Shown here: positions 6,723-17,576 of the stretch, piece by piece | Layout of the letters: each line of letters begins with the position of its first letter | Position numbering within the stretch: position 1 is the first letter of the stretch | Assembly (NCBI GenBank): GCA_964615185.1 | Contig: CAZTOS010000047.1 | Coordinates: forward strand, 1-19,065 | Length of the DNA stretch: 19,065 bases | Reading direction: 5' to 3' | Source: an uncultured Thermococci archaeon | GTDB lineage: Archaea > Methanobacteriota_B > Thermococci > Thermococcales > Thermococcaceae | Position numbers and translations under genes: made by a program | The notes under the pieces: generated by a model | The model's input: only the letters and a program-made list of their open reading frames with translations | Told to the model about the DNA's origin: nothing | Database searches by the model: none

Positions 6723-8153
<1,431 letters not shown>

Positions 8154-8180: not shown

Positions 8181-8250
8181 TCTAAATTCTAAAGTTTAAC
8201 ACGGAGAAAGATTTATATTGCCCTCGCCTCTTTTTCCTATGGGGAGTAGT

Positions 8251-9798
8251 ATGAAATCGGCAAAAATCATCATTATGTCACTAATCCTTATCTTATCTAC
8301 GGGATGTATTTCTATTGAGACATCATTTCATTCCCATAACCACAACTATCCAATCAAGGTTTTTGTTCAAATCGAGGAGGAAGCCGCTGCTTTTGAATTC
8401 GCAAAGTTCAAGCTAACTGTAGGTAATGTGACCATTGATAAGCTCAATACTCCACTCTTTGTTGGGAGGGTAGGCATAAATGATGGAGAGGTTCCAATAA
8501 TTTTTACTGTAAGAGGAAGTCTCACAAACTGGTATGGGAAGACATTTAAGGTGAAAGAAATGCTTTCCATATCCTTTAAGGCAAATGACAATGATAAAAT
8601 CCTAATAACTCTAAAAATCTACAAAGAAGATGACACCTTTAGAGTTGGAATTGATGAGAAGAAATCTGGGATAATTGGGAGAGAAATTCCAGAGGACGTT
8701 TTTCTGAGTCCCGAAGATGCACTTCTAAAAAGAGCCAAAGGGACAGGGTTTTATAACGAACTCATGAAGGAACTTGAAAAAAATCGTGAGATTAGAGAGA
8801 AGTTCTGGAGACAATATAAGGAAACGGGAGATTTAAAGTATCTAAGGAGTTATCGAGATTCATTCTATACTGTCAGAATTTTTGGAGAGCTTGCAAAATG
8901 GAGAAAGCTGAATGAGGTTGAATACAGAGCCCTTTTGGCAGAACTAAGGGCAAACAATGCCTACTATTCCCATTATACTTCCCCAACCAAAGATTTTTCT
9001 GCGCTTGTTTTTTCTGATGACTCTCCTTATTATTCAACTTTTAGAATCAAAGGGTCTCTGAATTCTTCTTTGCCATTCATATATTACACTGGAAGAGGAT
9101 TCAACCTTTATCCAGTAACAGCCATCCATTGGGCCGAAATACACTTTCAAAGAGGACAAAACAAAAAAGCCCTGCAAATCCTAAAAGAGCTCAGCCAATA
9201 TGCCCAATATGGAGAATATAAAGGAAAAGAGTACGTGCTCTTCAAGAATTATTTCCACTTTGAAAATGCTTCAGTTCCGTGGGTTTCTGGGTATGCCCAA
9301 GGAATGGGTGCCGGGGTTTATGCAATAGCCTATAACCTAACGGGCAATGAAACCTATTTGAAAATAGCTAAGGGATTGGTGAATTCCTTCGATTTGCCAC
9401 TAAGCATGAATGGCTTTGTTTCACACACAAAATATGGAGACTGGTATCTTGAATACAACTACAACTCAAATGAGCTCGTTCTAAACGGACACATCATAGC
9501 TCTGCAGGGGCTTTACTATTACTGGCAGGTAACCCACGACGAAAAAGCCTGGCAACTTTTCCAAAACGGAGTCCAAGCTGTGAGAAATGCACTCCCGATA
9601 TTTGATACCGGCTCATGGTCGAAATATTCAAATATTCATGGAGATGCCAGCGAGTTCTACCACCGTTTACATATTAGACTCTTGAAGTGGCTCTATGATG
9701 TTGCTGGAGACAAGTACTTCCTTGAATATGCAAGAAAATGGAATGATTACCTCGTGATTAGAGGTCTGAAACCAGAAAAGATTCAGGTGAGCAGATGA
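8251..9798 (+). CDS. Lipoprotein with C-terminal D-glucuronyl C5-epimerase-like domain
   Basis: Signal peptide with lipobox (MKSAK-hydrophobic-LSTGC). C5-epimerase C-terminal motifs WVSGYAQG, LEY, VLNGHIIALQGLY, FDTGSWSKY and YHRLHI. TATA (AAAGATTTATAT) at about 8207-8218 argues against the 8218 start. Confidence 0.8.
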   Translation: MKSAKIIIMSLILILSTGCISIETSFHSHNHNYPIKVFVQIEEEAAAFEFAKFKLTVGNVTIDKLNTPLFVGRVGINDGEVPIIFTVRGSLTNWYGKTFKVKEMLSISFKANDNDKILITLKIYKEDDTFRVGIDEKKSGIIGREIPEDVFLSPEDALLKRAKGTGFYNELMKELEKNREIREKFWRQYKETGDLKYLRSYRDSFYTVRIFGELAKWRKLNEVEYRALLAELRANNAYYSHYTSPTKDFSALVFSDDSPYYSTFRIKGSLNSSLPFIYYTGRGFNLYPVTAIHWAEIHFQRGQNKKALQILKELSQYAQYGEYKGKEYVLFKNYFHFENASVPWVSGYAQGMGAGVYAIAYNLTGNETYLKIAKGLVNSFDLPLSMNGFVSHTKYGDWYLEYNYNSNELVLNGHIIALQGLYYYWQVTHDEKAWQLFQNGVQAVRNALPIFDTGSWSKYSNIHGDASEFYHRLHIRLLKWLYDVAGDKYFLEYARKWNDYLVIRGLKPEKIQVSR

Positions 9799-10898
9799 GG
9801 GAGAAAGCTTTAATTTTGGTCTTTATGCTGCTGACTTCTTCTCTCTTTGGTATATATGAAAATGCAGAAAATCGAATTTTAGCTCAAACCGAGGATCCAG
9901 AACTTGCTACCCTTCTGCAACAAAACGAGAATGTTGTGCTTGGCAACTTCATGTCATTTCTCAGCACCGTGAATCCTCTTTACTTAATCTCAAGTTTTGA
10001 GGCTTCTTATCCTCGTTTAGTGTTTTCAAAGGTAAAACTAACTCCAGAGAGAAATAAAATCTTAAAAGCAACACTAAGAGCAAACAACGAATTCTATTCT
10101 CGCTATTTATCACCACTTAAAAGCTTCTATGCAGTTTCATTCACAAGCTCGGCACCCTACAATGATGTATTTCTTGCAAACTCAAGTTTCAAAAGTGCCT
10201 TGCCTTATGTCCATTATAACTTTAGGGGATTAGTTCTTTATCCAGTTACAGCACTTCATTGGGCTGATGTTTATTTCCAGATAGGTAAAGAGGAGAGAGC
10301 TCTGGAAATATTAAGGGAACTTCAGTCGTATTTAATCATAAAGAACTACCAGGGATTAGAATACGCAGTTTTTGAAAACTATTTTCACTTCGAGAACTCT
10401 TCAATCCCTTGGATTTCAGGCTATGCTCAGGGGCTTGGAGCGGGACTATATGCAAAAGCCTACAACATCACAAAAAACGAGAGCTACCTAAAAACTGCTC
10501 AGCTCCTAATGAATTCATTCAGAGTTCCTTACAGCAAAGGAGGATTTATTGTAAATTCAACTTATGGACTTTGGATTTTAGAGTATGCCTACAACTCAAA
10601 CGAGCTTGTGCTGAATGGACATATAATAGCCCTCCAAGGTGTTTACTACTATTGGGAAATTACAAACAACACCTATGCAAAATGGGTTTTTGATGAAGGA
10701 GTAAAAGCTGTTGAAAAAGCTCTTCCAGACTTTGACGAAAACGGATGGAGCTTGTACTCAAACGTTCATGGCAGAGCGATGAAAAATTATCACAAACTCC
10801 ATATTCAGCTTTTGGAATGGCTCTATGAAAAAACAAAAGATGAAAAATTCAAGGAATACGCAGAAAGATGGAGAAAATCACTCCAAAATGTGAGGTAG
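9795..10898 (+). CDS. Second exported D-glucuronyl C5-epimerase-like protein (tandem paralog)
   Basis: N-terminal signal or anchor. Motifs WISGYAQG, LEY, VLNGHIIALQG, FDENGWSLY and YHKLHI. ATGA overlap with CAGGTGA RBS. Confidence 0.8.
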   Translation: MREKALILVFMLLTSSLFGIYENAENRILAQTEDPELATLLQQNENVVLGNFMSFLSTVNPLYLISSFEASYPRLVFSKVKLTPERNKILKATLRANNEFYSRYLSPLKSFYAVSFTSSAPYNDVFLANSSFKSALPYVHYNFRGLVLYPVTALHWADVYFQIGKEERALEILRELQSYLIIKNYQGLEYAVFENYFHFENSSIPWISGYAQGLGAGLYAKAYNITKNESYLKTAQLLMNSFRVPYSKGGFIVNSTYGLWILEYAYNSNELVLNGHIIALQGVYYYWEITNNTYAKWVFDEGVKAVEKALPDFDENGWSLYSNVHGRAMKNYHKLHIQLLEWLYEKTKDEKFKEYAERWRKSLQNVR

Positions 10899-11462
10899 CG
10901 CTCTAATCACGGGCAGACTTATTAGGATTCCTCCAATTACATCCACGGCACTTTGAATTGCATTTGGGAGTGCTATCACAAGCCAAAATGGAATGTGGAA
11001 CCACTCTTCAATCTTTGGAATAACTTGCTCCCTTGGAATGCCGAGCCATATTGGAAGTGCATAATAATAGTTCAATCCAACCATGAGAGGTATTCTAATC
11101 GCAATGCTAATTAGATAGGCAGAAACGATAAATGCAATGAGCTGCTTTTCTGTGTAGCTCTCTGGACTGAATTTTGTAAGTTTTTTCGCTATCTCAAGAC
11201 CTAAGATTACGCTGAGTGTTGCAAAGAACTTCATGCTGGCACCAAGCCATGAAGATTGGGACACTATGCTGAGTCCAACGAAGAGCAACACCAAAGATAT
11301 CAAGGAACTTGTAAAGCTTAGTAAGATGTAAACAACAACTATTGGGATTGCAACTAAATCTATTGTCATTCCCCACTGACTAGGCACCTTGAGTGGAGAA
11401 ACATTTAGCATTAAACTGAGAGCCAGCATTATTCCGATTAAAGCTATTTCCCTCGATTTCAT
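10878..11462 (-). CDS. ECF transporter substrate-specific (S) component
   Basis: About 194 aa with roughly 6 TM helices. N-terminus SREIALIGIMLALS..L, then IDLVAIP and IR..LM..LNYYYALP. Substrate not assignable. Confidence 0.75.
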   Translation of the reverse strand: MKSREIALIGIMLALSLMLNVSPLKVPSQWGMTIDLVAIPIVVVYILLSFTSSLISLVLLFVGLSIVSQSSWLGASMKFFATLSVILGLEIAKKLTKFSPESYTEKQLIAFIVSAYLISIAIRIPLMVGLNYYYALPIWLGIPREQVIPKIEEWFHIPFWLVIALPNAIQSAVDVIGGILISLPVIRALPHILE

Positions 11463-11481
11463 GCCCATCCCCATCTTCAAG

Positions 11482-11521
11482 TTTGTTCCATAATTTATAA
11501 AGTTTTGTTCCATAAATGGAA
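11482..11521. repeat. 12-bp direct repeat flanking a TATA box plus an overlapping palindrome
   Basis: TTTGTTCCATAA at 11482-11493 and 11504-11515. TTCCAT-AA-ATGGAA at 11508-11521. Confidence 0.7.
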
Positions 11522-11581
11522 TAATTGAGAGAGGCAAAATCCTTTATAGCCCCTTGAACGAGTTTTCATGGGTGGTTTGAA

Positions 11582-12772
11582 ATGAGAATTCCAGAGGATG
11601 TTAGAAAGGACATCCCTCTTACTCAAGAGGTCATTTACTTTGACAACACGGCTACAAGTTTAACCCCAATTCCAGTTGTTGAAGCCATGAACGAGTATTA
11701 CCTCAAATACAGGGCAAATGTTCACCGAGGCATTCACCGGTTGTCTCAGATGGCGACACACAAGTATGAGGAAGCAAGGAAAATTGTTGCAGATTTCCTC
11801 GGTGCAAAGTTTGAGGAGATAATTTTCACAAAGAACACAAGCGAAAGCTTAAACTTGGTTGCCCTTGGATTAGAGTGGAAGAAAGGCGACAAAATAGTAA
11901 CAACACCTTATGAGCACCACTCTGATTTGCTTCCCTGGCAGAGGGTTGCAAAGAAGTATGGAGCAAAGCTTGAAATTATTGAAGGCGATGATGAAGGAAA
12001 CCTTGATTTAGCAGATGCCGAGAAAAAGATTAAGGGTGCAAAGCTCGTTGCAGTTCAGCACGTTTCTAACGCTTTAGGAGTGATCCATGAGGTTGAAGAG
12101 ATTGGAAAGATGGCAAAAGAGGAAGGAGCGATATTTGTCGTAGATGCGGCCCAAAGTGTAGGGCACATGGAGGTTGATGTTAGAAAGCTTCATGCTGACT
12201 TTTTAGGATTCTCTGGACATAAAGGAACATTAGGACCAACAGGGATTGGAGTTCTGTATATTAACGAGGAGATGTTTGACATCTTTGAGCCTCCATTAAT
12301 AGGCGGAGGAACCATTGAAGATGTTGAGCTTTATGATTACAAGCTTACAGCTCCTCCAGAGAGATACGAAGCGGGAACTCCAAACATCGGCGGGGCAATA
12401 GGATTAGCGGCAGGGATTAAGTACATTGAAAAGATTGGGCTCGATAAAATCGAAAAGCAGGAGCACAAACTCGTCAAAAGAACAACTGAAGGTCTAACAG
12501 AGCTTGAAATTCCATGGTACGGGCCGAGAAACTTGAAAAAACACGCTGGAGTTGTTAGCTTTAACGTTCCACCATTACACCCACATGACGTTGCTGCTAT
12601 ATTGGATGAACACAACATAATGGTCCGCTCTGGACATCACTGTGCTCTGCCAGTGATGAAACGTTTGGGCATTAACGGAACAGTAAGAGCTTCATTCCAC
12701 GTCTATAACAGCATTGAAGAAGTCGAGACATTTTTGAGTGTCTTGGAGGAGCTCGTTAAAAGCTTGCGTTAG
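11582..12772 (+). CDS. sufS: Cysteine desulfurase, SufS/CsdA (class II) type
   Basis: YFDNTATS, ANVHRG, EHHSD, VDAAQS, PLP lysine in SGHK, EAGTPNI and catalytic RSGHHCA. Confidence 0.95.
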   Translation: MRIPEDVRKDIPLTQEVIYFDNTATSLTPIPVVEAMNEYYLKYRANVHRGIHRLSQMATHKYEEARKIVADFLGAKFEEIIFTKNTSESLNLVALGLEWKKGDKIVTTPYEHHSDLLPWQRVAKKYGAKLEIIEGDDEGNLDLADAEKKIKGAKLVAVQHVSNALGVIHEVEEIGKMAKEEGAIFVVDAAQSVGHMEVDVRKLHADFLGFSGHKGTLGPTGIGVLYINEEMFDIFEPPLIGGGTIEDVELYDYKLTAPPERYEAGTPNIGGAIGLAAGIKYIEKIGLDKIEKQEHKLVKRTTEGLTELEIPWYGPRNLKKHAGVVSFNVPPLHPHDVAAILDEHNIMVRSGHHCALPVMKRLGINGTVRASFHVYNSIEEVETFLSVLEELVKSLR

Positions 12773-12908: not shown

Positions 12909-13184
12909 ATGCTCATTGCAAAACCATGTGCAAGTATGAAAGCCATAAACATAACCCCAGAAGAAAAATATGACATTGATATGGAAGAACTCTGTGAATG
13001 CTTAGCTGAGAAAGGTTTTCAAATTAAGAGGGTCACGCGGTTTTTGGCTTTAGTTAAGAAAAAGTACGATATAAGCGTATTTCCAAGCGGAAAGATTATT
13101 GTGAAAGACACTGATGATAAGGAAGAAGCATTGAAGATAGCAAAGGAGATTTATGAGTGCATGGAGCCGTACAAGGTGATCTAA
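12909..13184 (+). CDS. Small Cys-containing hypothetical protein (TBP-like alpha/beta fold suspected)
   Basis: GGGGTGAT RBS before ATG 12909 and upstream TATA. Contains the ISVFPSGKIIV..T.D.EEA..IA motif. Confidence 0.75.
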   Translation: MLIAKPCASMKAINITPEEKYDIDMEELCECLAEKGFQIKRVTRFLALVKKKYDISVFPSGKIIVKDTDDKEEALKIAKEIYECMEPYKVI

Positions 13185-13984
13185 TGTTCACAAAAGAGTT
13201 CATTACAGAGAAAGTTAGGGAAATTCGAAAGAGGTATGGCTTTGAGGAAGTTCCCTTTTTTATTGACGAAGTCATCTATGACAGCGAAGGGGATAAGCTG
13301 TTCATCATAGCAAGGGATAGGAGCGACAAGAGCACAATTATAGGCAACAGCTTTGTGATTGGAAAGCTCAGAGAAGAGCTTGGAGTGAAACAAGTTACCG
13401 TATATTCCAAGCTCGACTTGCTGATTAAGAGAAAAAGAGTTCTCAAGAACATTAGAAGAATTGAGGGTACACATTTAGAGTTTCTAAAACCTATACTTGA
13501 AGCAGAGCTTAAATTTCCTCCAAGAAAATGGCCAGAGCTTAATGATAATGGAGAGGCTTTAGTCTTCCTAAGCTTCAACGCTAAGGCCATGATTAGCTTT
13601 GCCGAAAAAGTTGGGTTAATTCCCGTGAAAGTTGGGATCAAATATGCCTTTCCGAAATGGGAGTATGAATCAACTGAAGGTTCACCAAAAGAGGTTCTGT
13701 TCCCAGACGAGGAAAAACTGATAGGAATCGCAAAGAAGAAAGGTCTGAGAATTATAATTTCTGACTTTCCTTTTGATTTGAAGTTTAAAGAGGATATTGC
13801 ACTTTTAAATCCTCTCCGATTTTTGCACATGGGATTCTTTGAGGCGAAGTACTTCTTTGGCTTTGAAAAGCCAGTGATTCTTGACAAAAATGCTTTAGTG
13901 GACTTTGTAATTAGCTATGTTCATGAAGGTCTTATGGAGTCAACTGATGGTGCAAACTTAATCTGGAGGGAATGGAAAAGGTGA
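13184..13984 (+). CDS. Hypothetical protein with KH-like N-terminal region, related to COG1365-type PP-loop proteins but lacking the PP-loop
   Basis: TAATG coupling with AGGTGAT RBS. Contains IIARDRSDKSTIIG..VIGKLREELGVK and C-terminal EGLMESTDGA. No SGGxDS motif. Confidence 0.65.
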   Translation: MFTKEFITEKVREIRKRYGFEEVPFFIDEVIYDSEGDKLFIIARDRSDKSTIIGNSFVIGKLREELGVKQVTVYSKLDLLIKRKRVLKNIRRIEGTHLEFLKPILEAELKFPPRKWPELNDNGEALVFLSFNAKAMISFAEKVGLIPVKVGIKYAFPKWEYESTEGSPKEVLFPDEEKLIGIAKKKGLRIIISDFPFDLKFKEDIALLNPLRFLHMGFFEAKYFFGFEKPVILDKNALVDFVISYVHEGLMESTDGANLIWREWKR

Positions 13985-14049: not shown

Positions 14050-14868
14050 ATGATTGGCATATATGATAAGGTGACGTTTATCTCAGACCTCTTAAATTTT
14101 GTATTTGTGCTGATAGTTTTTGTGATTACATTTAAGTACCGGCATGCTTTTGTGAATAAATTTCCATCCCTAAAGGGATTCTACTACACAATCTTAGTAA
14201 GCCTTGGAATAGCAGTTGGGGGGAATGTAATTGATGTTCTTGACAACTTAATAATCCAAGGACATCGCTTGGGAGGTCAATTCACAGACCAGTTGACAAG
14301 TTGGATATATGCAATAACAATAGCTTTCATAGGAATTGGTTGGATAAAACTCATAGCGGATATAGTAGAGAGGTACATTCCAGTTCCAGTAGTCAGGGAA
14401 GATTTTGAAAAAACGGTGAGCATTTACCTTGATCCGGGGCTTTATATATGCACTGATGAAGACAAATGCTACAGCTATTTTAAGGCGTTACTATCTGAGC
14501 GTCCTGGGCTTGTAATTTCAAGAAATCCCCCAGAAATCGTCAGAGAGACTTTAGGACTTAAAGAAACACCAATACTGTGGCTGACGAAGATTAAAAGAAA
14601 AGGCACCGTTTACCCTACAAATCTCCCCTACCTACTGCAGACCCTTGTTGATTTTATGAGAAAAGAGGGAAAACCAAAGGTCATACTCATAGGAGGTCTC
14701 GAATACCTCACTACTGAAAACGGCTTCAAAAGCATTTTTAAGTTTCTAACGACCCTCAAAGATTATGCAGTGATACATAATTCAATAATCCTAATACCAA
14801 TTGAAAGCAAAGCCTATGATGATAGGGATATCCATCTATTGCTAAGGGAATTTGAAATCATAAGCTGA
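14050..14868 (+). CDS. DUF835-domain membrane protein
   Basis: Three N-terminal TM helices, then L.ISRNPP, LWLTK, V.PTNL, LEYL..ENGF.SI.KFL..LKD and LLLRE. CAGGTG RBS. Confidence 0.88.
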   Translation: MIGIYDKVTFISDLLNFVFVLIVFVITFKYRHAFVNKFPSLKGFYYTILVSLGIAVGGNVIDVLDNLIIQGHRLGGQFTDQLTSWIYAITIAFIGIGWIKLIADIVERYIPVPVVREDFEKTVSIYLDPGLYICTDEDKCYSYFKALLSERPGLVISRNPPEIVRETLGLKETPILWLTKIKRKGTVYPTNLPYLLQTLVDFMRKEGKPKVILIGGLEYLTTENGFKSIFKFLTTLKDYAVIHNSIILIPIESKAYDDRDIHLLLREFEIIS

Positions 14869-14877
14869 GGTGATAAA

Positions 14878-16011
14878 ATGATTATCGGCGTTGTTGGGAA
14901 GATAGCAGCCGGAAAAACGACAATAGCAAAGTTTCTTGAGAAAAAAGGTTTCTGCAGAATTTCATGTAGCGACCCCCTTATAGATTTGCTGACCCATAAT
15001 GTTGATGCTTACTCCCGGATTCCTGAACTTCCACCGAAAGCCGAACCAGCGAGAGAGAAGCTGATTGAATATGGAAGATATCTAAAGGAAACCTATGGGG
15101 AAGATATCCTAATTAGGCTTGCTTTGGATAAAATGAGGCATTGCAAAAATGTTGTCATTGATGGTGTTCGCTCAAAAGGGGAGATTGAAGCTATAAAGCA
15201 GAGAGGAGGCGTTATTATTTACGTTGAGGCAAAGCCCGAGCTTAGATATGAAAGACTGGTTAAAAGAAAAGCAGAAAAAGATAGAGCCATTAACAGCTTT
15301 GAGGACTTCAAAAGGATGGATAACGAAGAGGAGAGGCTTTATCATACGAGCAAACTCAAAGATTTGGCAGATTTTGTAATTGTGAATGAAGGAACTTTGG
15401 AGGATTTGAGGAGAGAAGTTGAAAAGATTCTTGAATTTCTGAATACACTTGTGGTTATTGCTCCCTGCCTGCTTAGCCCTTTCACCGTTTATAGAGGCCC
15501 AAAGGAGAAGGAATACAGAGCCGCTTCAGCCCTAATGAGGCTCTTTGGGAAGTATCACTACCTCAAAATTTTGGCTTATCCGTGTCCAGAATTCTTACTC
15601 TTAGGTTTTCCAAGGCTACCTGCAAGCAAGGAAGTTTATGAAAAGCTCGGTATGAGAGAATATGCCAAGAGAATTGCTGAGTTCATAGTTAGGAGCATCG
15701 AAGAAGAGCAGCCCCCAAGAGTGATTTTCATTGGGGTTAAAGGTTCTCCAACATGCGGAGTCTTCCACACAACATCAAGCGACCCAGAAAAGTATCCCTA
15801 TGAGAGAATGGAGGAGTTCAAACGGCTTCCACAAGAAGAAAGATTTAGATTAGCAGAGAAAATGATTAAGGAGTTCAAACTTGTCAGAGGGGAGGGAATC
15901 CTGTTTGAGATTTTAAAGGCCAAAATAGAGGGCATTTATCTGGAAGTTGATAAGGATGATTTAGAAAGAAGTTTGAAGAAAATAGAGAAAGCTCTTAGTG
16001 ATTCATTATGA
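14878..16011 (+). CDS. Fusion of P-loop NMP/dephospho-CoA-kinase-like domain and DUF523/TudS-like desulfidase domain
   Basis: N-terminal half: GKIAAGKTT, VVIDGVRS, ELRYERL..R, ADFVIVNEGT. C-terminal half (from about 15445): APCLL, PCPE..LLG.PR, GSPTCG, GEGIL. GAGGTGAT RBS. Confidence 0.8.
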   Translation: MIIGVVGKIAAGKTTIAKFLEKKGFCRISCSDPLIDLLTHNVDAYSRIPELPPKAEPAREKLIEYGRYLKETYGEDILIRLALDKMRHCKNVVIDGVRSKGEIEAIKQRGGVIIYVEAKPELRYERLVKRKAEKDRAINSFEDFKRMDNEEERLYHTSKLKDLADFVIVNEGTLEDLRREVEKILEFLNTLVVIAPCLLSPFTVYRGPKEKEYRAASALMRLFGKYHYLKILAYPCPEFLLLGFPRLPASKEVYEKLGMREYAKRIAEFIVRSIEEEQPPRVIFIGVKGSPTCGVFHTTSSDPEKYPYERMEEFKRLPQEERFRLAEKMIKEFKLVRGEGILFEILKAKIEGIYLEVDKDDLERSLKKIEKALSDSL

Positions 16012-16419
16012 AAAATACTTATAACTTACGTATCTATTCACTACAAAAAACACTGAAAAAATAGCAAAGATTGTGAGAGACATTCTAAATGTTCGACTTG
16101 CTAAGCCCTGAGCAGTCAACCAGAAGAACTTTTAGACTAAGCCTATTTGGTAGGCTTTGGTTCTGGAATATACTAGCGGAGATATCACTGGGCACTTCTC
16201 AAGCTCGTGGACAATCTTCCAAGAATGGAAGGGAAGAAGGCATTTATCTTTTCAAGAGCTGGAATGAACATCCTCTGGCACAACCACATAGTTAGAGAAT
16301 TTTCATGCAGGGGCAGGACACAAACTGGTTGGCTCACAAAGATTGGAGGGATAAACAAAGGAAGATCAAAAAAGGACTTAGAGAGAGCGAGGAGATTTGC
16401 TGAGAGATTGGGAAAGTAA
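16008..16419 (+). pseudogene. Flavodoxin-family pseudogene
   Basis: Manual translation across shifts and stops: MK/ILITYVSIHYK/NTEKIAKIVRDILNV...LVGFGSGIY*RRYHWALLKLVDNLPRMEGKKAFIFS.AG...EFSCRG..TGWLTKIGGINKGR..KDLERARRFAERL. ATGA overlap with the upstream stop. Confidence 0.88.
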
Positions 16420-16434
16420 GGTAACAAAAACCGA

Positions 16435-16455
16435 ACGCTTAAATATTATAAGCGT
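16435..16455. promoter_or_regulatory. Perfect 7-7-7 inverted repeat over a TATA box
   Basis: ACGCTTA-AATATTA-TAAGCGT contains TTAAATA and ends 26 nt before ATG 16482. Confidence 0.6.
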
Positions 16456-16481: not shown

Positions 16482-17576
16482 ATGGGAAATAATACTCAAA
16501 ACTCTTTACTATATTACCCGACTATTATCCCTCCAAAAGAATGGATGTATTGGGCATTATTTTATTGGGACAAAATTTTTTCCATAATTCCAAAAGAACT
16601 GGAGGATGCACTAAAAGATAACGATCATAAAATAATTTCTATTCTGAATGCAAAAAGAGGAGACATATGTCTTATTCAAGAACTATTGGAAAATTATCCA
16701 GAGTATTTTGAACCAAAATACCCAGAAGAGTACTTTAAAAGGCAAGAATTTCCAAAACAAGAATTTATTAAAGAAGTTCAAATAAAATTACAATCTATCC
16801 AAAACTATGAAAGAGGCAATGGTACGCTATTTCTACTTCATAAAAATAAAATTCCTCCAGAACTCTATGATATGTTTATGAATCTTGATCGTAAGTTACT
16901 TTGGTATGAAAATAACAAACTTAAAATACCGTCAAAATGGACATTTAAAAATCCTAAAACTGCAATTGTCTATATGGCAATCTTAGCCAAGTACATCAGT
17001 ATATATGATACAAAAATGAATAAGAGGAGTATTGTTGAGCCAATAACGGATAAAAAGAAATTTGAAGATTATGCTATAAGAACATTTACTAAAGAAGGAC
17101 TAAACCGACAAGTGGCCATTAATATCGCTTTTCCAGAAATATTGCCCGTACCTAACAGTAAACACTCTCTAAAAACGATAATCAAGTTCAAAGAAGAACA
17201 TAAATACAAACTATTAAGATTTAGAGAATTTTTTATAATATTAAACGTGAACTCCAGACCATTAATGATGAAACTGAGATTAATGAGCTAATAGTACATT
17301 ATTCAGAACAAATTGAAAGAGAACTCCATGAATTATTGAAACTTGAAAAAAGTAAGAGACGTGAAATTTTTTTTAGGTTTATTGAAAGCGGGCATCAACT
17401 TGACAGTCCTCTTACCCCGATTCGAAGATATATCCAGTGACATGACAGGAGCCATAGCACTCATAAATGGAATAGTTGAAGTTGTACATGTTTTTGAGAA
17501 GTGGAAACGCTTTGATAAACTAAAAGAATATCCCACATTCTATGTATATCAAGCAAAAAAGAAAGGTATAATATAA
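16482..17576 (+). pseudogene. AT-rich DUF6236-like gene interrupted by two compensating poly-T frameshifts (364 aa if repaired)
   Basis: N-terminus LLYYPTI.PP.EW...ALFYWDKI.SI.P, plus LPVP....L..I.KFK..H...L.RFR. A stop-free alternative frame (17234-17374) bridges ORFs 16482-17291 and 17343-17576. Family name is from recall. Confidence 0.7.

What the first reader, a model, noticed from the sequence alone, without database searches (positions are those of the whole stretch)
14878..16011. Nucleotide kinase fused to a TudS/DUF523-like [4Fe-4S] desulfidase: candidate thio-nucleotide recycling enzyme
Seen: one uninterrupted 377-aa ORF. About 190 aa form a P-loop NMP/dephospho-CoA-kinase-like domain. 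The rest carries three spaced cysteines (APCLL codon 15466, CPE 15583, SPTCG 15754) and a GxG motif, with no internal RBS or ATG at the junction. Known: these motifs define DUF523/TudS, which uses a 3-Cys [4Fe-4S] cluster to desulfurate thiouracil and 4-thio-UMP, and Thermococcales tRNAs carry thiolated uridines. Inference: the fusion is a Rosetta-stone hint that this poorly characterised archaeal kinase acts on thionucleosides/nucleotides or their products, coupling desulfuration to phosphorylation.
Basis: partly seen in the sequence, partly recalled or inferred. Interest (0 to 1): 0.78.

Follow-up and report, generated by a model that had tools for sequence, protein, structure and literature searches.

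The report
Kinase fused to TudS-like desulfidase
In one group of Thermococcus, two neighbouring genes have merged into one reading frame, joining a kinase of unknown substrate to an iron-sulfur-type domain that likely strips sulfur from thiolated pyrimidines; the merger probably reflects their being neighbours more than a shared reaction, but it points to a testable job for two unstudied proteins.

Summary
The 377-aa ORF is real. Residues 1-188 are the orthologue of TK2192, a P-loop kinase shown not to be a dephospho-CoA kinase (PMC6650551). Residues 189-377 have the TudS fold (Z 12.1 to 6Z92) and keep its three cluster cysteines, Glu45 and Ser101, with Ser103 as Thr and Arg17 as Val. They miss both the PF04463 and CD3072 cut-offs: a divergent TudS-related subfamily. 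The fusion is in 8 of 8 genomes of the genus, under purifying selection, and in a sister lineage, but it joins genes that are already neighbours (73 of 87 other Thermococcaceae within 5 kb, often with overlapping stop and start). They are unlinked in one whole genus, and the closest bacterial copies stand alone. Those copies lie beside pyr genes or nucleoside-type importers in 7 of 10 loci, which supports a thio-pyrimidine salvage role independently of the kinase. The kinase's steadier neighbour is another gene (81 of 95 adjacent). Verdict: desulfidase likely; coupling to the kinase possible but weakly supported. No activity was tested.

The parts
14878..15441 (+). P-loop kinase domain (residues 1-188), PRK08356 / arCOG01045, orthologue of TK2192; Walker A GKIAAGKTT and DGVRS motif intact
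15439..15444 (+). Linkerless junction: CTG (Leu188) stands where unfused relatives have the start codon of the second gene
15442..16011 (+). TudS-fold domain (residues 189-377) with Cys197, Cys236, Glu238, Arg246, Ser290, Pro291, Thr292, Cys293
13157..13984 (+). Context: conserved 275-aa gene, apparently the non-catalytic half of a PP-loop ATPase; steadiest neighbour of the kinase
14050..14868 (+). Context: DUF835 membrane protein inserted between the 275-aa gene and the fusion (present in 5 of 8 genus genomes)

Best explanation
This is a genus-wide fusion of two neighbouring genes: the C-terminal domain is likely a [4Fe-4S] desulfidase that recycles thiolated pyrimidine bases, nucleosides or nucleotides, and the N-terminal domain is likely a nucleoside-monophosphate-type kinase of still unknown acceptor that probably need not act on the same molecule. 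Shown: the single frame, the TudS fold, the conserved cysteines and Glu/Ser pair, purifying selection on both halves, the distribution of fused, adjacent and unlinked forms. Inferred mechanism (by analogy to TudS): three cysteines hold a cluster whose fourth iron binds the substrate's sulfur, Glu238 with Ser290/Thr292 activates water, and sulfide leaves to give the oxo-pyrimidine (most likely from 4-thiouridine species; 2-thio species are possible since the pocket differs). Inferred origin: the two genes overlapped by ATGA, and a small net deletion (5 nt by count against L011) removed the stop and the ribosome-binding site, fixing 1:1 co-production without being required for function.
For: Fold: top five Foldseek hits are all TudS (E 2.6e-4 to 8.5e-4); VIA-align Z 12.1, rmsd 3.0, 145 aligned, next hit 7.0. 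C197, C236, E238, R246, S290, P291, C293 invariant in 103 of 103 rows. dN/dS 0.06-0.11 for the kinase half (7 pairs) and 0.09-0.15 for the TudS half (6 pairs, the seventh saturated). Only TudS-related domain found in the genome; ThiI and TtuA/NcsA-type genes present; s4U, s2C, m5s2U, cnm5s2U in T. kodakarensis tRNA (PMC11323500). Pyrimidine context without the kinase: 7 of 10 distinct bacterial loci beside pyr genes or a Bmp-type ABC importer; 4 of 18 loci in other orders of the class directly before an NCS1 nucleobase permease. Dispensability of the link: 8 fused, 35 adjacent, 38 within 5 kb, 8 far apart, 3 on different contigs, 3 without the desulfidase gene, of 95 genomes; stop/start overlap in unfused g3 genes.
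Against: No activity, cluster or expression data. The domain fails both family cut-offs, and no member of its subfamily was found characterised in 10 literature searches. Arg17 and probably Tyr110 of TudS, which dock phosphate and ribose, are not kept, so the substrate may differ. The bacterial loci are kin, not independent. The genes have stayed linked in 81 of 92 genomes that have both, and the fusion may have arisen twice (kinase tree unresolved), which would suit a real functional tie.
Confidence: 0.55

Rival explanations
1. True two-step salvage enzyme: the TudS domain desulfurates a tRNA-derived thio-nucleotide and the kinase phosphorylates the product or substrate, most plausibly a 5-substituted UMP (m5UMP, cnm5UMP) or similar that PyrH and Cmk would not take.
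For: Linked in 81 of 92 genomes with both genes; fused in the whole genus and in a sister lineage at the same register; DGVRS motif and NMP-kinase fold, closest structure 3LW7 titled 'bound to AMP'; the same kind of kinase module is fused to a nucleotide deaminase elsewhere (NF041025 hit, residues 1-196); pyrBI directly upstream of the block in L050 and near it in several others; one bacterial locus (L125, 1 of 10) has a different, PfkB-type kinase two genes upstream.
Against: Unlinked in 9 of 9 g2 genomes; desulfidase gene not found in complete genome G011 and broken in G074 while the kinase stays; no arCOG01045 kinase in 12 of 12 bacterial loci, 18 of 18 other-order loci or 5 of 5 bacterial MAGs; unrelated genes are often inserted between the two (38 of 95); PyrH and Cmk are present; the kinase is more tightly tied to the 275-aa gene.
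Confidence: 0.22
2. The C-terminal domain binds a 3-Cys cluster but acts on something other than thio-pyrimidines (another thio- or seleno-compound), as the CD3072-type branch has no tested member known to me.
For: Closer to NF045597 than to PF04463; TM-score to TudS only 0.45-0.56 and an inserted helical segment; altered pocket; many CD3072-type genes lie in contexts with no nucleobase link (14 of 18 loci).
Against: Tyr18, Pro102, Glu45 and Ser101 equivalents kept; the nearest outside relatives sit in or beside pyr operons and nucleoside-type importers.
Confidence: 0.15
3. The desulfidase is also, or mainly, made as a separate protein from the CTG/TTG at codon 188, as RefSeq annotates it.
For: Codon 188 is CTG or TTG in 8 of 8 genomes, one of only 2 of 27 invariant Leu sites with that property; RefSeq lists 189-190-aa products (P0012, P0252, P0256).
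Against: No Shine-Dalgarno-like sequence before it, unlike unfused relatives; the kinase frame has no stop; descent from ATG explains the codon; other Leu codons are just as fixed (CTA at 69, CTT at 122).
Confidence: 0.06

Closest known systems
TudS thiouracil / 4-thio-UMP desulfidase (DUF523, PF04463; PDB 6Z92, 6ZW9; PMC10611767)
   Same: Fold; Cys10/43/104 = Cys197/236/293; Glu45 = Glu238; Ser101 = Ser290; Tyr18 = Tyr205; Pro102 = Pro291; Arg54 = Arg246 (numbering read from the chain).
   Different: 18-23% identity, below the Pfam cut-off; Ser103 is Thr292; Arg17 is Val204 with an invariant Arg two residues on (Arg206); Tyr110 not evident; longer, with a helical insert; fused behind a kinase.
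CD3072 family TudS-related putative desulfidase (NCBIfam NF045597)
   Same: Best family match (E 2e-16); all distant relatives tested hit it (18 of 18 TudS-like proteins plus P0084).
   Different: 57.6-60 bits against a cut-off of 130; PCLLSP-x3-YRG in place of HCLLNQN; forms its own branch in Thermococcaceae, Bipolaricaulota and a few other archaea.
RudS (TudS-DUF1722; PMC11417400)
   Same: A TudS domain fused to a second domain.
   Different: RudS has a C-terminal tRNA-binding partner that changes the substrate and makes up about 40% of the family; here the partner is an N-terminal kinase, found fused in one lineage only.
TK2192 / TK1334 (arCOG01045; PMC6650551) and SSO1041 (UPF0200, PDB 3LW7, 3H0K)
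   Same: 75.7% identity to the kinase ORF that begins with the TK2192F primer sequence; same fold as SSO1041.
   Different: TK2192 is a separate 22-kDa protein; its substrate is unknown and it has no dephospho-CoA kinase activity.

Membership tests
TudS / DUF523 (PF04463) | Pfam gathering score 34.7 bits | tested here: not met
   20.4 bits whole protein, 22.8 bits C-half; no genome match over cut-off
TudS / DUF523 (PF04463) | TudS fold | tested here: met
   model pLDDT 96.9; Foldseek ranks 1-5 TudS; VIA Z 12.1, rmsd 3.0, 145 aligned
TudS / DUF523 (PF04463) | Three cluster cysteines (Cys10, Cys43, Cys104) | tested here: met
   Cys197, Cys236, Cys293 in 103 of 103 rows
TudS / DUF523 (PF04463) | Catalytic Glu45 and Ser101 | tested here: met
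   Glu238, Ser290 in 103 of 103 rows
TudS / DUF523 (PF04463) | Catalytic Ser103 | tested here: inconclusive
   Thr292; Thr in 21 of 21 closest rows, Ser 53 / Thr 16 of 74 distant rows; hydroxyl kept
TudS / DUF523 (PF04463) | Phosphate-binding Arg17 (preference for 4-thio-UMP) | tested here: not met
   Val204 at that register; invariant Arg206 might substitute
TudS / DUF523 (PF04463) | [4Fe-4S] cluster and desulfidase activity | not testable with these tools
   needs biochemistry
CD3072 family (NF045597) | NCBIfam cut-off 130 bits | tested here: not met
   57.6-60 bits
PRK08356 / arCOG01045 kinases | NCBIfam cut-off 189 bits | tested here: met
   344-347 bits
PRK08356 / arCOG01045 kinases | Intact Walker A and DGxR motif | tested here: met
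   G7, K8, G12, K13, T14, T15, D95, G96, R98 invariant in 24 of 24 rows
Dephospho-CoA kinase (CoaE) | TIGR00152 cut-off 65.55 bits and activity | tested here: not met
   34-38 bits; orthologue inactive in PMC6650551
RudS | DUF1722 domain fused to TudS | tested here: not met
   no such Pfam hit in the protein

The most novel reading that the evidence does not exclude
The fusion is a bifunctional salvage enzyme for tRNA-derived thio-pyrimidines of hyperthermophiles: a new TudS branch with a remodelled pocket desulfurates 2-thio, 5-substituted nucleotides (m5s2U, cnm5s2U, s2C) that classic TudS binds poorly, and TK2192-type arCOG01045 kinases are the missing kinases for modified pyrimidine nucleotides, giving the first substrate for a near-universal archaeal kinase family.
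Probability: 0.15. Interest if true: 0.75.

Novelty: new variant of a known kind. Interest (0 to 1): 0.42.

Why it matters
The substrate of arCOG01045 kinases is a stated open question (PMC6650551), and how hyperthermophiles dispose of their many thiolated tRNA nucleosides is not described in the papers I could search. The two genes are adjacent in the genetically tractable T. kodakarensis lineage, so both can be tested directly. It also flags an annotation fault: GenBank names the fusion 'dephospho-CoA kinase' and RefSeq cuts the desulfidase half off at a CTG. If the halves prove unrelated, it remains an ordinary fusion of neighbours plus a new TudS branch.

Tried and rejected
Strain-specific stop loss: rejected (8 of 8 genus genomes; 4 of 4 runs bridge the junction). 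Unfused near relatives P0012, P0252, P0256: P0012 is identical to the second half of the fused ORF in L004, so these look like annotation splits, not separate genes. Independent kinase fusions: a search of 372-2000-aa proteins with alignment A2 gave 9 hits, 8 this fusion and 1 an F420H2-quinone-reductase fusion; only the 8000 best candidates were scored, so this is weak. Among 105 representatives the long ones checked (8) held no such kinase by Pfam or NCBIfam. Complex prediction of the unfused pair from G031: no verdict, not used either way. Full-length model pLDDT 93, pTM 0.87, but no coordinates were given, so active-site proximity was not tested. Single origin of the fusion: TudS tree groups g1 and g4 (96/85), kinase tree leaves it open, one-clade test p-AU 0.15. 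Sequence searches of the PDB with P0084 and A1 did not find TudS; the deeper alignment A2 did (E 0.0014). No RNA holder listed. The search for related loci could not use A2 or A3. The 'phylum' search returned the same 133 genomes as 'class', so other archaeal phyla were not surveyed by neighbourhood. Literature: searches TudS+desulfidase (11), TudS+difficile+4-thiouracil (15), TK2192 (16), TK2191 (24, none), arCOG01045 (34), DUF523+archaea (45), thiouracil desulfurase+difficile (55), MJ1399/UPF0200/TK1334/SSO1041/COG0237 (77), T. kodakarensis+s4U (98), thiouracil+Thermococc+desulf (117) showed no paper on this fusion or subfamily by title, abstract start or the passages read. PMC11985272 (C. 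difficile TudS) is not held; it and unread supplements may discuss CD3072-type or archaeal members. PMC2948915, PMC12013277 and PMC12210855 passages added nothing on this locus.

Full report
Observation. The window holds one open frame at 14878-16011 (+), 377 aa, preceded by an AGGTGA sequence. The first 188 residues pass the cut-off of PRK08356 (344-347 bits against 189); the last 189 hit PF04463 at 20-23 bits (cut-off 34.7) and NF045597, the CD3072-type TudS-related family, at 58-60 bits (cut-off 130). The frame is not an assembly error: all four public runs laid (four studies, the possible source run left out) have a gap-free contig across the junction. Named fused homologues come from T. 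barophilus and T. paralvinellae.

The kinase half. It is 75.7% identical to a kinase ORF in L018/L031 whose 5' end matches the published TK2192 forward primer, so it is the TK2192 orthologue. Shimosaka et al. (PMC6650551, passages read) purified TK2192 and TK1334, found no dephospho-CoA kinase activity, and call the function of these arCOG01045 proteins unclear. Walker A, the DGVRS motif and several arginines are invariant in 24 of 24 rows. The closest structures are SSO1041 (3LW7, titled as AMP-bound; TM 0.80 by target) followed by adenylate, dephospho-CoA and UMP/CMP kinases. From general knowledge of the fold (recalled), the DGxR arginine binds the acceptor's phosphate, so a monophosphate acceptor is more likely than a nucleoside. 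The genome also has the TK1334-type paralogue, PyrH and Cmk.

The TudS-like half. A model from 103 sequences (pLDDT 96.9) finds TudS at ranks 1-5 by Foldseek and at Z 12.1 by VIA-align, the next hit being 7.0. With the 6Z92 sequence shown and the residue roles in PMC10611767 (first 10,000 characters and passages read), Cys10/43/104, Glu45, Ser101, Pro102 and Arg54 map to Cys197/236/293, Glu238, Ser290, Pro291 and Arg246, each invariant in 103 of 103 rows. Tyr18 maps to Tyr205. Ser103 is Thr292. Arg17, which docks the phosphate of 4-thio-UMP, is Val204, with Arg206 invariant in the 21 closest rows; Tyr110 has no evident match. So the chemistry looks intact and the pocket altered. It is the only TudS-related domain found in this genome (95.6% complete), which has ThiI and TtuA/NcsA-type genes. 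T. kodakarensis tRNA holds s4U, s2C, m5s2U and cnm5s2U (PMC11323500, passages). Both halves are under purifying selection.

Distribution. Of 97 Thermococcaceae genomes, 92 have the TudS-like gene and 95 the kinase. Among the 95 with either: 8 fused (all of genus g1), 35 adjacent within 200 bp (one of them, G074, broken), 38 within 5 kb on the same strand, 8 far apart, 3 on different contigs, 3 with no TudS-like match, including complete genome G011. All 9 genomes of g2 (probably Pyrococcus; my inference, no call names it) have both genes unlinked (8 far, 1 on another contig). In unfused g3 genomes the kinase stop overlaps the next start (ATGA or GTGA) with a GAGGT ribosome-binding site inside the kinase tail; the fused form is 5 nt shorter there by count against L011 and has lost both. 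A second set of fused proteins (P0008, P0245, P0246, P0249, P0251) belongs to lineage g4, whose genome G010 has the genes split by 3.7 kb. One origin with later fission fits the shared register and the TudS tree; two origins are not excluded. The kinase's steadier neighbour is the 275-aa gene at 13157-13984: adjacent in 81 of 95 genomes, including 9 of 9 in g2. Its relatives in other families are followed by or fused to a PP-loop domain.

Context outside the family. The closest outside copies (48-84% identical to one another) are in Bipolaricaulota/Acetothermia records, one record labelled Neomarinimicrobiota, and GC-rich metagenome contigs. Of 12 loci, 10 are distinct. Four lie in or beside pyr genes (L073, L105, L126 directly after pyrE; L125 before pyrB-I-C-F-K and after an ABC importer and a PfkB kinase), three directly follow permeases of a Bmp-type ABC importer (L119, L129, L136), two have other neighbours and one is too short upstream. 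That Bmp-type importers usually carry nucleosides is recalled knowledge; NCBIfam's nearest model was a putative B6 importer, below cut-off. No arCOG01045 kinase was seen in these 12 loci or in 5 of these MAGs (completeness not given, no positive control in that call). In other orders of the class, 4 of 18 CD3072-type genes directly precede an NCS1 permease, 14 do not, and none of 18 has the kinase nearby. These loci are kin, so the counts overstate independence, but they tie the subfamily to pyrimidine supply without the kinase.

Reading. The best account is a desulfidase for thio-pyrimidines, fused to an operon neighbour by a small deletion. Direct coupling is possible: the linkage is old within the family and a kinase for non-standard products would make sense of it. 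But ordinary UMP needs no extra kinase, phosphorylating a thio-NMP is what TudS is thought to prevent (PMC10611767), and each gene persists without the other. I put coupling at about one in five.

Novelty. RefSeq already labels the second half DUF523 or 2-thiouracil desulfurase family, split at the CTG, and GenBank labels the whole dephospho-CoA kinase. PMC11417400 (passages) lists stand-alone TudS (58.9%) and RudS (40.1%) as nearly the whole family and has no mention of Thermococc* or kinase in its main text. Ten searches showed no paper on this fusion; the scan's earlier notes held none either. It is a new variant of a known kind, of moderate interest because it makes two orphan proteins testable in a tractable archaeon.

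Noticed in passing
window 16012-16437 (+): Flavodoxin-like pseudogene overlapping the fusion's stop: 56% identical to the intact 153-aa gene in L002, with several in-frame stops and deletions.
   Followed up: yes
window 16482-17576 (+): Low-GC (30%) insert with a 269-aa and a 77-aa ORF, no Pfam or NCBIfam hit, absent at this place in G002; looks like one broken foreign gene.
   Followed up: partly
window 13157-13984 (+): 275-aa gene in 95 of 97 family genomes; lacks the PP-loop motif, while relatives in other families are followed by or fused to an intact PP-loop domain. A possible non-catalytic subunit of an unstudied archaeal PP-loop enzyme.
   Followed up: partly
protein P0216 (365 aa, cluster of 5, labelled Bathyarchaeota): KptA/Tpt1 RNA 2'-phosphotransferase domain fused to a CD3072-type TudS-related domain.
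   Followed up: partly
protein P0266 (447 aa): F420H2-dependent quinone reductase domain fused to a PF04463-like domain.
   Followed up: no
window 10878-11537 (-), 11582-12772 (+), 6739-8153 (+): ECF S-component-like gene (NF046054, below cut-off), SufS-type cysteine desulfurase and pyrBI lie in the same conserved block; the ECF-like gene was within 7 of 20 fetched regions.
   Followed up: partly
L034:9471-10494, L035:4485-5460, L039:7365-8328; L043:4252-7129: In genus g5 the kinase follows a ThiS/MoaD and a ThiF gene; in G021 the TudS-like gene is divergent from ThiF and ThiI. Sulfur-relay neighbours recur after rearrangement.
   Followed up: no
L073, L100, L102, L125, L126: A BtpA/SgcQ-family gene directly follows the TudS-like gene in 5 of 10 distinct bacterial loci, a hint that BtpA/SgcQ works in nucleoside salvage.
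   Followed up: no
window 8218-10898 (+): Two tandem secreted-looking proteins with a D-glucuronyl C5-epimerase C-terminal domain.
   Followed up: no
G000:C57:12918-14109: Two tandem strong ThiI-domain matches in separate frames: a duplication or an assembly repeat.
   Followed up: no
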